Shown: positions 59,509 through 60,682 of the stretch, piece after piece
Layout: every line of letters begins with the position of its first letter
Numbering within the stretch: the stretch's first letter is position 1
DNA from: Escherichia coli
Lineage (GTDB): Bacteria; Pseudomonadota; Gammaproteobacteria; Enterobacterales; Enterobacteriaceae
Assembly: GCF_050920415.1 (NCBI RefSeq)
Contig: NZ_CP169309.1
Strand: one strand, 5' to 3'
Length of the DNA stretch: 64,000 nt
The notes under the pieces: generated by a model
The model's database searches: none
What the model was told of the DNA's origin: nothing
The model's input: only the letters and a program-made list of their open reading frames with translations
Made by a program: the position numbers and the translations under genes

Positions 59509-60149
59509 TAACCCATCTCCCCGTTAAGCTCTGATTTTCTGATCTGGTATACGTCGCTCGCTTTCTGTCGTTGCTCTGAGTTTTCAGGTAATAACTTCCA
59601 GCATTTAGCAAAAATATCTTTAAGTGCTTTTTCGTCCTGCGCTTTCGCTGCCGCATCACAGAAACGTGCTAATACTTCATCAGGATTTGGCGGCGCTTTC
59701 TGCTGCTGCGGTTGTTGTTTTGGTGGGTTTTTCTGTTGTCGCGGCTGCTGGCCTGTCTGCTTCGCGTAAGCATCAGTATCAGGATCGCGAGCATCATCTA
59801 TACAGAATAAACCGTTCAAAGCATATTTCCGCGCGTAACTTGATGTTGCTCCTGTTAGCTGGCTGGCGTCCATACCCTTCTTGCTTTCTTCCTCCCTGGC
59901 ATAAGCAGTTACCGCTATTACGTCTTCACCGTCGCTTAGCGTCGCCGTAGCTTTCACATAATAGCGATTGCCGATCAGGACAATTTCATCACTAACAGTC
60001 AGCGTGATATTTTGAAGCAGTGGTTTAACCGCCTCTAAAATATCCTCCGCCGACCTGTAATTATACCCGCCAAAATTATTACGCTGATTTTTCGGCGCGT
60101 TCAGCGTTTGCTGAATCGTCCATAGTTTTTTATGTAACTCTGTTTTCAC
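59508..60149 (-). CDS. erf: Erf-family single-strand annealing protein
   Basis: 213 aa; FGGYNYRSAEDI motif; apparent GTG start coupled to upstream small ORF. Confidence 0.75.
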   Translation of the reverse strand: MKTELHKKLWTIQQTLNAPKNQRNNFGGYNYRSAEDILEAVKPLLQNITLTVSDEIVLIGNRYYVKATATLSDGEDVIAVTAYAREEESKKGMDASQLTGATSSYARKYALNGLFCIDDARDPDTDAYAKQTGQQPRQQKNPPKQQPQQQKAPPNPDEVLARFCDAAAKAQDEKALKDIFAKCWKLLPENSEQRQKASDVYQIRKSELNGEMG

Positions 60150-60268
60150 CCTTTAATCTCCTTCGCTGTTAACACTACGTATAAGGCTTTATTCGCGGCG
60201 CTCCACATTTCGGCATCGTGAAGCATTTCCGCTACCGCCAGTTTGAATTGAAGCGCCCGAATAACCAT
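60146..60268 (-). CDS. small protein upstream of erf (Arf-like position, 40 aa)
   Basis: GGAGGTGA RBS; stop overlaps erf start. Confidence 0.4.
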   Translation of the reverse strand: MVIRALQFKLAVAEMLHDAEMWSAANKALYVVLTAKEIKG

Positions 60269-60298
60269 AATGTCACCTCCGGATGTTTACATTTTGTA

Positions 60299-60589
60299 TT
60301 AATGGTAGCGGACTTTATCCAGGGGTTTTTCCCCTAAATGGCGTGGTTGCGTTGCGTGGTAGTAGCTGCCGCTTTCATTTTCCGTATACCATTTTACTGG
60401 TCCTTTGCGACGTTCTTTAATGCTATTTGGTTTGCATCTTTCCTCGTTTGCAAATCGAATAGCTTTATCCACATTGTCTGTTTTATTGATTGCAGGTGAT
60501 GATTTTCTTTCGTTTTCTCTTTTTATCCTTCTGCGTTCCCTGGCATTCAGTTTACTGTCACATTTGCCATACATAATTGTAACGCTCAT
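60299..60589 (-). CDS. N-like transcription antiterminator (P22 gp24-like)
   Basis: 96 aa; N-terminal Arg-rich motif NARERRRIKRENERK; GGAG RBS; nut-like site upstream. Confidence 0.65.
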   Translation of the reverse strand: MSVTIMYGKCDSKLNARERRRIKRENERKSSPAINKTDNVDKAIRFANEERCKPNSIKERRKGPVKWYTENESGSYYHATQPRHLGEKPLDKVRYH

Positions 60590-60644
60590 AATCTGATCTC
60601 CGTATATCCTTGATGAAACTTAATAAAAATCATCTTCGTTAATT

Positions 60645-60682
60645 GCCGCACTTCCAGCGGCTGACCAGATTGTTAATGAGCG
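60645..60682 (-). promoter_or_regulatory. putative nutL (boxA plus boxB hairpin)
   Basis: minus strand CGCTCATTAACAA (boxA-like) then 9 nt then GCCGC-TGGAAGT-GCGGC hairpin. Confidence 0.5.

What the first reader, a model, noticed from the sequence alone, without database searches (positions are those of the whole stretch)
60146..60682. P22-type early-left module: nutL, N-like antiterminator, Arf-like small ORF coupled to erf
The 96-aa protein has an N-terminal arginine-rich motif like P22 gp24. Upstream on the minus strand are a boxA-like CGCTCATTAACAA and a GCCGC-TGGAAGT-GCGGC hairpin (boxB-like). A 40-codon ORF overlaps the GTG start of erf, as Arf does in P22.
Basis: partly seen in the sequence, partly recalled or inferred. 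Interest (0 to 1): 0.4.

Follow-up and report, generated by a model that had tools for sequence, protein, structure and literature searches.

The report
Known N-like antiterminator and nut site
This is the already-published N-like transcription antiterminator (Gp17) and its RNA recognition site from an mEp021-type prophage of E. coli, so it is ordinary. The small gene next to it looks like a Kil cell-division inhibitor, not P22 Arf, and an undescribed, highly conserved structured leader lies just upstream.

Summary
The 96-aa protein is 95% identical to Gp17 of coliphage mEp021. Gp17 is an N-lambda-like antiterminator that has been characterised experimentally (Valencia-Toxqui 2023, cited in PMC11893012). 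The boxA plus hairpin is the site published as nutR1. Two further sites of the same design lie in the window, where the literature places nutL and nutR2. The boxB stem covaries across relatives.

The Arf reading fails. The 40-aa ORF matches neither Arf family model, and it is not always next to erf in relatives. It gives sub-threshold matches to lambda Kil. "P22-type" is only loosely right. Erf is 52% and the repressor 39% identical to their P22 counterparts, and only about 20 N-terminal residues resemble gp24. The prophage belongs to the non-lambdoid mEpimmI group and sits next to mppA in E. coli.

The main finding is already known and of low interest. One side observation is worth recording: a roughly 213-nt cassette between the early promoter and boxA. 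It is optional (44 of 58 loci) and 3-4 times more conserved than the flanking genes. It is predicted to be structured, has one covarying helix, and has no Rfam match.

The parts
61089..61736 (-). CI/C2-type prophage repressor (HTH + S24 peptidase), orthologue of mEp021 Rep021
   Evidence: Pfam Peptidase_S24 at 4e-19 and HTH_3 at 5e-13. 39% identity to P22 C2. Aligns with the mEp021_15 region.
61066..61083 (.). Bidirectional intrinsic-terminator-like hairpin after the repressor gene
   Evidence: 7-bp G+C-rich stem followed by a T-run. Annotated as a terminator in mEp021, mEp010 and mEp515.
60937..60965 (-). Early promoter candidate (TTGACT, 17 nt spacer, TATATT), with two TATACAAAATG-type repeats just upstream (60968-60978 and 60990-61000)
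   Evidence: Best sigma-70 match in the region, 10 of 12 positions. Invariant across relatives. Repeats.
60683..60900 (-). Optional, highly conserved leader cassette of about 213 nt. The structured core is about 60682-60879, closed by the helix GGCUUAACA/UGUUAAGCC.
   Evidence: Present in 44 and absent from 14 of the 58 related loci where promoter spacing could be measured or the cassette core motif looked for. z = -3.3. One helix carries 3 compensatory pairs. No Rfam match. Divergence is 2.2%, against 7-8% in the flanking genes.
60670..60682 (-). boxA of the nut site upstream of the N-like gene (nutR1 in mEp021 nomenclature)
   Evidence: CGCTCATTAACAA. Differs at one position (plus the 5' C/T) from GCTCTTTAACAA, the form carried by cassette-less relatives. 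Compared directly with P22 and lambda nutL.
60645..60661 (-). boxB hairpin GCCGC-UGGAAGU-GCGGC
   Evidence: Exact coordinates. Folds at -10.1 kcal/mol. Stem covaries across relatives and across the three nut sites.
60299..60589 (-). N-like antiterminator, orthologue of mEp021 Gp17 (96 aa, arginine-rich motif at residues 15-29)
   Evidence: 95-97% identity to gp17 orthologues. phrog_271 at 1.2e-11. PF25694 at E = 0.0094, below the Pfam cut-off. Function taken from the literature.
60146..60268 (-). 40-aa ORF, weakly lambda-Kil-like. Its stop overlaps the erf GTG start (GTGA).
   Evidence: PF06301 at E = 5.1e-5, 23.1 bits against a cut-off of 27.6. phrog_2055 Kil at 4e-4. phrog_34942 at 9e-29. 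Close relatives carry precomputed PF06301 hits. No Arf match.
59508..60149 (-). Erf single-strand annealing protein (GTG start)
   Evidence: PF04404 at 3e-42. 52% identity to P22 Erf from residue 1.
59089..59508 (-). Single-strand DNA-binding protein
   Evidence: PF00436 at 2.5e-23 and phrog_44 at 1.6e-45.
61901..61934 (+). Second nut site (nutL in mEp021 nomenclature): boxA TGCTCTTTAATAA and boxB UCGCU-GCGA-AGCGA, on the transcript running toward the HTH and replication genes
   Evidence: Conserved in mEp021, mEp010, mEp515, L013 and L014. Position matches the literature description, upstream of the repressor gene.
53178..53211 (-). Third nut site (nutR2): boxA TGCTCTTTAAAAA and boxB GCGC-UGAAAU-GCGU, downstream of the cytosine methyltransferase gene and upstream of the ninF/ninG/Q region
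   Evidence: The nut sequence is identical in mEp021. The upstream ORF 53309-54067 is a DNA methyltransferase, phrog_757 at 2e-87.

Best explanation
The region is the start of an early operon of an mEp021-type (mEpimmI group) prophage. The prophage is integrated next to mppA in an E. coli chromosome.

**Proposed mechanism.**
1. Transcription starts at the repressor-controlled promoter at about 60937-60965.
2. It runs through a roughly 250-nt untranslated leader and then through a nut site, made of boxA (60670-60682) and boxB (60645-60661).
3. It then enters the gene for a 96-aa N-like protein, the orthologue of mEp021 Gp17.
4. By analogy with lambda N and P22 gp24, the N-terminal arginine-rich motif of the protein binds the boxB hairpin on the nascent RNA, and boxA recruits host NusB/NusE.
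5. The resulting complex makes RNA polymerase resistant to downstream terminators.
6. The same protein would act at two further nut sites of the same design. One is at 61901-61934 on the plus strand, toward the replication genes. The other is at 53178-53211 on the minus strand, ahead of the nin genes and Q.

**Downstream genes.** After the N-like gene come a 40-aa ORF, erf and ssb. The 40-aa ORF is most likely a lambda-Kil-type cell-division inhibitor. Its stop codon overlaps the erf start codon.

**What is shown here.** Orthology, the anatomy of the three nut sites, covariation of the boxB helix, and the absence of any similarity to Arf.

**What comes from the literature.** Antitermination activity of Gp17, its use of three nut sites, and Nus dependence of these phages.

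**What is inferred.** The contacts between the arginine-rich motif and a GNRA-type loop, the Kil function, and translational coupling to erf.
For: **Identity of the phage and protein**
- The 3.4-kb region is 88-94% identical to mEp021, mEp010, mEp515, mEp044, mEp013, mEp554 and MagusPhagus.
- The protein is 95-97% identical to gp17 orthologues, with Arg17, 19, 20, 21 and 24 all present.
- PMC11893012 states that Gp17 mediates early antitermination at nutR1, nutR2 and nutL, and that exactly these arginines are conserved.
- The protein matches phrog_271 at 1.2e-11. P22 gp24 matches the same family at 7e-40 and lambda N at 9e-24.
- 16 of 19 family members match PF25694, the P22 gp24 family, with a best E-value of 4.8e-4.

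**Nut sites**
- Three sites in the window share a 17-nt motif against 0 expected by chance.
- Their positions match the published descriptions.
- boxB stems differ between lineages but stay paired: GCCGC/GCGGC, GCUAC/GUAGC, GCAC/GUGC, UCGC/GCGA and GCUC/GAGC. The formal covariation count has 0 of 500 shuffles reaching the observed score.
- Every loop contains a GNRA sequence (GGAA, GAAA or GCGA).
- The layout of boxA, a 7-9 nt spacer and a 4-5 bp hairpin parallels P22 and lambda nutL.

**Small ORF**
- It matches PF06301 at 5e-5 and phrog_2055 at 4e-4.
- Close relatives carry precomputed PF06301 hits.
- The published comparison lists 'a Kil-like protein' among the core genes.
- Differences between relatives in this ORF include several apparently synonymous third-position changes, by visual reading of the alignment.
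Against: - Pfam matches of the protein to the N families are below the curated cut-offs: PF25694 gives 16.9 bits against 27.9.
- BLASTP against lambda N finds nothing.
- No solved structure is found by profile search.
- The nutR1 loop here is 7 nt (UGGAAGU). It is not the pentaloop of lambda or P22, so the mode of recognition is inferred rather than shown.
- The primary experimental paper (Arch Virol 168:92) could not be read. The exact published nut coordinates were therefore not compared base by base.
- The Kil assignment is below the Pfam cut-off. BLASTP against lambda Kil finds nothing, and the Enterobacter phage homologue has no Pfam match.
Confidence: 0.9

Rival explanations
1. This is a P22-type (lambdoid) early-left module, and the 40-aa ORF is an Arf-like accessory factor that is translationally coupled to Erf and stimulates Erf-mediated recombination.
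For: - The ORF sits directly upstream of erf with a GTGA stop/start overlap, as arf does in P22.
- Erf is 52% identical to P22 Erf.
- The repressor is 39% identical to P22 C2.
- The N-terminus of the N-like protein resembles gp24.
Against: - The ORF matches neither PF17585 nor phrog_2445 at E <= 1, although both models recognise P22 Arf strongly.
- BLASTP against P22 Arf finds nothing.
- P22 Arf is strongly acidic, and this ORF is not.
- In relatives the ORF is separated from erf by a 106-aa ORF (L013), is followed by an HNH endonuclease, or occurs without any erf (Enterobacter phage Mulvp2).
- No P22 Arf, Kil, C3, 17 or Ral homologue is present, and Abc2 leaves only an 18-aa remnant match (E 0.008).
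- The phage group is described as non-lambdoid.
Confidence: 0.06
2. The boxA/hairpin resemblance is coincidental or serves another role, such as an RNase III site or translational control of the downstream gene. On this reading the 96-aa basic protein is not an antiterminator.
For: - The hairpin's folding energy is not exceptional on its own: z = -1.9, with 8 of 200 shuffles as good.
- The protein does not reach the Pfam cut-offs.
- The nut site lies only 55 nt upstream of the start codon, so an additional role in translation of the N-like gene is possible.
Against: - Three sites of the same design occur against 0 expected by chance.
- The helix covaries.
- The protein is 95% identical to one reported to have antitermination activity at these sites.
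Confidence: 0.03

Closest known systems
Gp17 / nutR1-nutR2-nutL early antitermination system of coliphage mEp021 (mEpimmI group; Valencia-Toxqui et al. 2023, Arch Virol 168:92; Negrete-Mendez et al. 2025, PMC11893012)
   Same: - The protein is 95% identical, with the same conserved arginines.
- The sequence from boxA through boxB upstream of the gene is identical.
- The nutR2 sequence is identical.
- The nutL hairpin is the same.
- Gene order is the same: repressor, promoter, leader, nut, gp17, gp18, erf, ssb.
   Different: - Only a few substitutions: 5 amino acids in the protein and one base in the nutL boxA.
- This copy is a prophage next to mppA, one of the integration sites published for the group.
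- The region after ssb differs from that in mEp021 and MagusPhagus.
P22 gp24 (Pfam PF25694 N_peptide) with P22 nutL
   Same: - The N-termini are similar: MSVTIMYGKCDSKLNARERR against MTV-ITYGKSTFAGNAKTRR.
- The arginine-rich motif has the same pattern, NA+xRR+x+R.
- The layout is the same: boxA CGCTCTTTAAC, an 8-9 nt spacer and a 5-bp boxB stem.
- Both proteins fall in phrog_271.
   Different: - The protein is below the Pfam cut-off: 16.9 bits against 27.9, where gp24 itself scores 152.
- There is no similarity beyond about residue 30.
- The boxB loop is UGGAAGU, UGAAAU or GCGA rather than GACAA.
- Three nut sites are used instead of two.
- Here the N gene, the recombination genes and Q are all transcribed in the same direction.
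Lambda N (Pfam PF11438 N36) with lambda nutL/nutR
   Same: - The arginine-rich motif is similar: A-x-x-RRR-x-(R/K)-R.
- Both use boxA plus a GNRA-type boxB.
- The literature describes both as Nus-dependent.
- Both proteins fall in phrog_271.
   Different: - BLASTP finds no similarity, and there is no PF11438 match.
- No Trp aligns with lambda N Trp18.
- The nut site lies about 55 nt from the start codon and is preceded by a long leader, whereas lambda nutL lies close to the transcription start.
Lambda Kil (Pfam PF06301; FtsZ-ring inhibitor)
   Same: - Size is similar: 40 aa against 47 aa.
- The ORF gives a weak profile match over residues 3-28. By eye, ALQFKLAVAEMLHDAEMWSAANKAL aligns with AIQTKFTIATFIGDEKMFREAVDAY.
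- Both lie in the early operon directly upstream of, and overlapping, the first recombination gene.
   Different: - The match is below the Pfam cut-off, and BLASTP finds nothing.
- The ORF has its own PHROG family of unknown function, phrog_34942.
- No functional test is known to me.
P22 Arf (Pfam PF17585, phrog_2445)
   Same: The position and the overlap with the erf start are the same.
   Different: There is no sequence similarity by any test. The amino-acid composition is different. The linkage to erf is not conserved.

Membership tests
mEpimmI Gp17 N-like antitermination system | Protein orthologous to mEp021 Gp17 with conserved Arg17, 19, 20 and 24 | tested here: met
   95% identity to mEp021_17, and all of these arginines plus Arg21 are present. 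Criterion taken from PMC11893012.
mEpimmI Gp17 N-like antitermination system | Three nut sites (boxA + boxB): upstream of gp17, upstream of the repressor gene on the divergent transcript, and downstream of the cytosine methyltransferase gene | tested here: met
   Sites at 60645-60682(-), 61901-61934(+) and 53178-53211(-).
mEpimmI Gp17 N-like antitermination system | Gp17- and Nus-dependent read-through of terminators | not testable with these tools
   Reported for mEp021 in the literature. The primary paper is not held.
Lambdoid N proteins (phrog_271; Pfam PF25694 P22-type, PF11438 lambda-type) | Sequence membership by profile | tested here: inconclusive
   phrog_271 at E = 1.2e-11 is met. PF25694 at E = 0.0094, 16.9 bits against 27.9, is below the cut-off. 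There is no PF11438 match. Lambda N itself matches PF25694 only at E = 0.038.
Lambdoid N proteins (phrog_271; Pfam PF25694 P22-type, PF11438 lambda-type) | N-terminal arginine-rich motif paired with a boxB hairpin preceded by boxA on early transcripts | tested here: met
   Motif at residues 15-29. Nut anatomy and helix covariation. Compared with P22 and lambda nutL. Binding itself was not tested.
P22 Arf (PF17585 / phrog_2445) | Sequence similarity to Arf | tested here: not met
   No match at E <= 1 in Pfam or PHROGs. BLASTP finds nothing. Both models recognise P22 Arf at 1.9e-35 and 5.2e-32.
P22 Arf (PF17585 / phrog_2445) | Small ORF immediately upstream of erf and overlapping it | tested here: met
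   A GTGA overlap at 60146-60149. The adjacency is lost in L013, in E. coli E21845 and in phage Mulvp2.
Lambda Kil (PF06301) | Sequence membership by profile | tested here: inconclusive
   23.1 bits against a cut-off of 27.6, E = 5.1e-5. phrog_2055 at 4e-4. 7 of 19 close relatives carry a precomputed PF06301 hit. BLASTP against lambda Kil finds nothing.
Lambda Kil (PF06301) | Inhibition of FtsZ-ring formation / host killing on expression | not testable with these tools
   Needs an expression experiment.

The most novel reading that the evidence does not exclude
The roughly 213-nt cassette between the early promoter and boxA (about 60683-60900, minus strand) may be a previously undescribed structured RNA that tunes the N-like system. 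I did not find it described in the one paper on this phage group that I could read.

Possible modes of action:
- It could control access to boxA. The 3' strand of its closing helix, UGUUAAGCC, abuts boxA and can alternatively pair with the UUAACA of boxA.
- It could present extra GNRA-type hairpins that bind Gp17.
- It could yield a processed small RNA.

It is optional within the phage group, much more conserved than the neighbouring genes, and has no match in Rfam.
Probability: 0.25. Interest if true: 0.45.

Novelty: already known. Interest (0 to 1): 0.15.

Why it matters
The main finding adds no new biology. It is one more copy of a published antitermination system, and it confirms that the three-nut-site design travels intact in E. 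coli prophages.

It has three modest practical uses:
- **Annotation.** RefSeq labels these Gp17 orthologues as hypothetical proteins. Their names could be transferred from the mEp021 work.
- **Correcting a mislabel.** The 40-aa ORF should not be called Arf.
- **RNA recognition.** The comparison shows that the boxB of this family is a 4-5 bp covarying stem capped by U-GNRA-(N)-U/A. One arginine-rich motif apparently has to read GGAA(G), GAAA and GCGA loops. That is a tractable RNA-recognition question.

The conserved optional leader cassette is the only element here that could lead to something new.

Tried and rejected
- **Rfam.** Searches of 58000-64000 at E <= 5 and of 60580-60980 at E <= 10 found nothing credible for the nut site or the leader.
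- **Solved structures.** A profile search of the PDB with the Gp17 family found no match at E <= 10.
- **BLASTP, N-like protein.** Nothing against lambda N. Only the first 20 residues align with P22 gp24.
- **BLASTP, 40-aa ORF.** Nothing against P22 Arf, P22 Kil or lambda Kil. A local tblastn of P22 and lambda early-left proteins against the window found only Erf and C2.
- **Primary paper.** The mEp021 Gp17 paper (PMID 36795170) is not held. The supplements of PMC11893012 do not give the nut sequences as text.
- **Leader as a coding region: rejected.** The annotated 37-aa gp16 has no PHROG match at E <= 0.001. Its substitutions fall 7:4:6 over the three codon positions. The covarying helix would change 6 of 13 residues.
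- **Leader as a multicopy repeat or MITE: rejected.** There is one copy per genome in 30 of 5426 E. coli genomes. All 35 IMG/VR hits lie in contigs that also carry gp17.
- **Leader as a tRNA or tmRNA: rejected.** ARAGORN finds none in the window.
- **Strand of the leader structure.** Folding energy does not settle it: z = -3.3 for the sense strand and -3.2 for the antisense strand.
- **Abc2.** The P22 Abc2 search of the phage collection added nothing.
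Full report
**1. Observation**

On the minus strand the window reads, in order:
- a CI/C2-type repressor gene (61736-61089);
- a terminator hairpin (61083-61066);
- a strong sigma-70-like promoter, TTGACT-17-TATATT (60965-60937);
- a roughly 250-nt untranslated leader;
- CGCTCATTAACAA (60682-60670);
- the hairpin GCCGC-UGGAAGU-GCGGC (60661-60645);
- a Shine-Dalgarno sequence and a 96-aa ORF (60589-60299);
- a 40-aa ORF (60268-60146);
- erf, starting at GTG 60149;
- ssb (59508-59089).

The 40-aa ORF's stop and the erf start share the sequence GTGA.

**2. What the protein is**

The 3.4-kb region is 88-94% identical to seven coliphages of one group: mEp021, mEp010, mEp013, mEp044, mEp515, mEp554 and MagusPhagus. 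The 96-aa protein is 95-97% identical to their gp17.

PMC11893012 states the following:
- Gp17 of mEp021 is the N-lambda-like protein responsible for early antitermination.
- Arg17, 19, 20 and 24 are fully conserved, and Arg21 is nearly so.
- Gp17 acts at three nut sites. nutR1 is upstream of gp17, nutR2 is downstream of a cytosine methyltransferase gene, and nutL is upstream of the repressor gene.
- These phages are Nus-dependent but non-lambdoid.

The window protein has all five arginines. The primary paper (Arch Virol 168:92) is not in the library, so the experimental claim is second-hand.

Profile evidence agrees with a distant N relationship:
- phrog_271 'anti-termination protein N-like' is matched at 1.2e-11. 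The same family takes P22 gp24 at 7e-40 and lambda N at 9e-24.
- Pfam PF25694, which is the P22 gp24 family (152 bits for gp24), is matched at E = 0.0094. That is below its cut-off. Lambda N matches it about equally weakly, at E = 0.038.
- 16 of 19 family members match PF25694.
- BLASTP aligns only the first 20 residues with gp24 and nothing with lambda N.

The family is narrow. It comprises 32 clusters at 62-97% identity, all unnamed. IMG/VR holds 45 loci, most on contigs of roughly 48-57 kb. It is present in 34 of 5426 complete E. coli genomes, where RefSeq calls it a hypothetical protein.

**3. The nut site**

The 13-nt boxA alone is not beyond chance. The extended motif GCTCWTTAANAATCYGG occurs three times in the window against 0.00 expected, at:
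- 60665-60681 (-);
- 61902-61918 (+);
- 53194-53210 (-).

Each copy is followed 3-5 nt later by a short hairpin:
- GCCGC-UGGAAGU-GCGGC;
- UCGCU-GCGA-AGCGA;
- GCGC-UGAAAU-GCGU.

The positions fit the published nutR1, nutL and nutR2:
- The second site lies between the repressor gene and the divergently transcribed HTH and replication genes. It is conserved in mEp021, mEp010, mEp515 and two metagenomic relatives.
- The third lies just after a DNA methyltransferase gene (phrog_757 at 2e-87). Its sequence is identical to that in mEp021 downstream of mEp021_33, ahead of ninF, ninG, a resolvase gene and Q.

Divergent relatives keep boxA as GCTCTTTAACAA. I recognise this as the rrn boxA consensus from my own knowledge. 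The same relatives change the boxB stem while keeping it paired: GCUAC/GUAGC, UGCAC/GUGCA, GCAC/GUGC, UCGC/GCGA and GCUC/GAGC. A formal count over 8 distinct sites gives the following:
- the four inner pairs are formed in every site;
- 4 of the 5 pairs tested change on both sides;
- the covariation score is 0.71 against 0.19 in shuffles, with 0 of 500 shuffles reaching it;
- register-shifted controls collapse.

All loops have the form U-GNRA-(N)-U/A, with GGAA+G, GAAA or GCGA as the core. I infer that the arginine-rich motif reads a GNRA-type fold, as lambda N and P22 N do. That step is inference, not a result. The design of boxA, an 8-9 nt spacer and a 5-bp stem parallels P22 nutL (CGCTCTTTAAC...GCGCUGACAAAGCGC) and lambda nutL.

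**4. The 40-aa ORF**

It is a real gene:
- It has its own PHROG family, phrog_34942, matched at 9e-29.
- A homologue with 53% identity exists in an Enterobacter phage.
- By visual reading of the alignment, differences between relatives include several apparently synonymous third-position changes.

It is not Arf:
- PF17585 and phrog_2445 recognise P22 Arf at 1e-35 and 5e-32. Neither is matched by this ORF.
- BLASTP finds nothing.
- The amino-acid composition is different.
- In relatives the ORF is separated from erf, is followed by an HNH endonuclease, or occurs without erf.

It gives sub-threshold Lambda_Kil matches: PF06301 at 23.1 bits against a cut-off of 27.6, E = 5e-5, and phrog_2055 at 4e-4. 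Seven of 19 close relatives carry a precomputed PF06301 hit. The published genome comparison lists a Kil-like protein among the core genes. Lambda kil also sits directly upstream of, and overlapping, the first recombination gene. I put the Kil function at about 0.5-0.6. The overlap with erf suggests translational coupling, but the variable neighbours argue against a dedicated partnership with Erf.

**5. 'P22-type'**

- Erf is 52% identical to P22 Erf over its full length.
- The repressor is 39% identical to C2.
- No Arf, P22 Kil, C3, 17 or Ral homologue exists in the window. For Abc2 there is only an 18-aa remnant-like match.
- In this phage group the N-like gene, the recombination genes, the nin genes and Q are all transcribed in one direction. 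Replication genes are transcribed in the other.

The operon is therefore the 'rightward' one in the literature, and the site is nutR1, not nutL.

**6. Context**

Window 12000-17261 is E. coli chromosome (fnr, uspE, ynaI, mppA) at 100% identity. Related prophages sit at the same place in other strains. mppA is one of the attachment loci published for the group.

**7. Beyond the finding: the leader**

The distance from the -10 element to boxA is bimodal across the related loci where it could be measured. It is 255-258 nt in 42 loci and 42-50 nt in 14. With two contig-end loci added that carry the cassette core motif, 44 of 58 loci have the cassette. A cassette of roughly 213 nt is therefore optional.

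Where the cassette is present:
- Its divergence is 2.2%, against 7.0% in the repressor gene segment, 8.2% in gp17 and 5.0% in the 40-aa ORF.
- The 200-nt core folds at -74 kcal/mol, z = -3.3. The closing helix is GGCUUAACA/UGUUAAGCC, and it encloses two multi-hairpin domains.
- One helix changes from CUUGCU/AGCAAG to AUCACU/AGUGGU in one lineage, giving three compensatory pairs.
- That change would alter 6 of 13 residues of the annotated 37-aa gp16. gp16 has no family match. Its substitutions show no third-position bias, falling 7:4:6 over the codon positions.
- Rfam has no match.
- The cassette occurs once per genome, and only in phages that carry gp17.
- The 3' strand of the closing helix abuts boxA and can alternatively pair with the UUAACA of boxA.
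- Cassette-bearing loci mostly carry a non-consensus boxA, whereas cassette-less loci all carry GCTCTTTAA[CT]AA.

Limits on this evidence:
- Covariation comes from one helix in one lineage.
- The antisense strand folds almost as well.
- High conservation could instead reflect recent spread by recombination.

I therefore record the cassette as unexplained, with about 0.25 probability that it is a functional structured RNA of a new kind. PMC11893012 does not mention it. I could not check the 2023 paper.

**8. Verdict**

The system is already published, so novelty is 'already known' and interest is low. The only lead with potential is the conserved optional leader.

Noticed in passing
window 60683-60900 (-): A cassette of roughly 213 nt lies between the early promoter and boxA. 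It is present in 44 and absent from 14 of the 58 related loci. It is 3-4 times more conserved than the flanking genes and is predicted to be a closed multi-hairpin RNA (z = -3.3), with one covarying helix. It has no Rfam match, and the gp16 ORF annotated inside it shows no sign of coding constraint. Its closing helix abuts boxA and could compete with it for pairing.
   Followed up: partly
window 60968-60978, 60990-61000, 53228-53238, 53296-53306, 60290-60300, 47801-47811, 31425-31435, 31454-31464, 28137-28147, 28205-28215, 19853-19863 and others: The 11-mer TATACAAAATG occurs 13 times at up to 1 mismatch, against 2.3 expected. Most of the copies checked lie at gene boundaries across the prophage. 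Two direct copies lie just upstream of the -35 element of the early promoter. Inverted pairs occur at 31425/31454, at 53228/53296, and around 47801. It is a candidate operator for the repressor or another regulator, and it is spread over the genome.
   Followed up: partly
window 53261-53296 (-) and 53223-53250 (-): A strong terminator-like hairpin (16-bp stem followed by a T-run) lies between the methyltransferase stop codon and the third nut site. A possible promoter, TTGTTC-16-TATACT, overlaps an inverted copy of the TATACAAAATG motif. If real, nutR2 may be served by its own repressor-controlled promoter rather than only by read-through.
   Followed up: no
window 12000-17261 and about 17262 onward: The left part of the window is E. 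coli chromosome (fnr, uspE, ynaI, mppA) at 100% identity. The prophage begins next to mppA and runs past the end of the window. Other E. coli strains carry a related prophage at the same site.
   Followed up: partly
window 61737-62296 (+): No convincing cro-like ORF lies between the divergent promoter region and the first plus-strand gene. The transcript carrying the nutL-type site leads straight into an 84-aa HTH protein (62042-62296, which matches the N-terminal part of replication-initiator PHROG families) and a 366-aa replication protein.
   Followed up: no
window 58529-59088 (-): The region after ssb differs from that in mEp021 and MagusPhagus, which carry an Abc2-type anti-RecBCD gene there. 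Here only an 18-aa stretch (58797-58850) resembles the C-terminus of P22 Abc2 (E = 0.008). A terminator-like hairpin also gives a weak match to the Rfam Thr_leader family (58979-59070, E = 0.022), which is probably just a terminator.
   Followed up: no
window about 47815-47830 (-): A homopolymeric run of about 14 C lies immediately upstream of one TATACAAAATG-type motif copy (seen).
   Followed up: no
L008, L009, L012, L058-L060 (E. coli RM9245, E21845, STEC308 and IMG/VR relatives): A sub-lineage has a different arginine-rich motif (NAR[KA]RRRMKRAAEQ) together with a different nutR1 boxB (GCUAC-UGAAAU-GUAGC or UGCAC-UGAAAU-GUGCA). The 7-nt loop UGGAAGU occurs only with the IKRENERK form of the motif. 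The nutL-type hairpin is unchanged in every relative in which it was seen.
   Followed up: partly
L061 (mEp021 record 19315-20233): The GenBank locus tag for the cytosine methyltransferase upstream of nutR2 is mEp021_33, whereas PMC11893012 calls the gene gp32. This is a numbering offset to bear in mind when mapping the literature onto the record.
   Followed up: no
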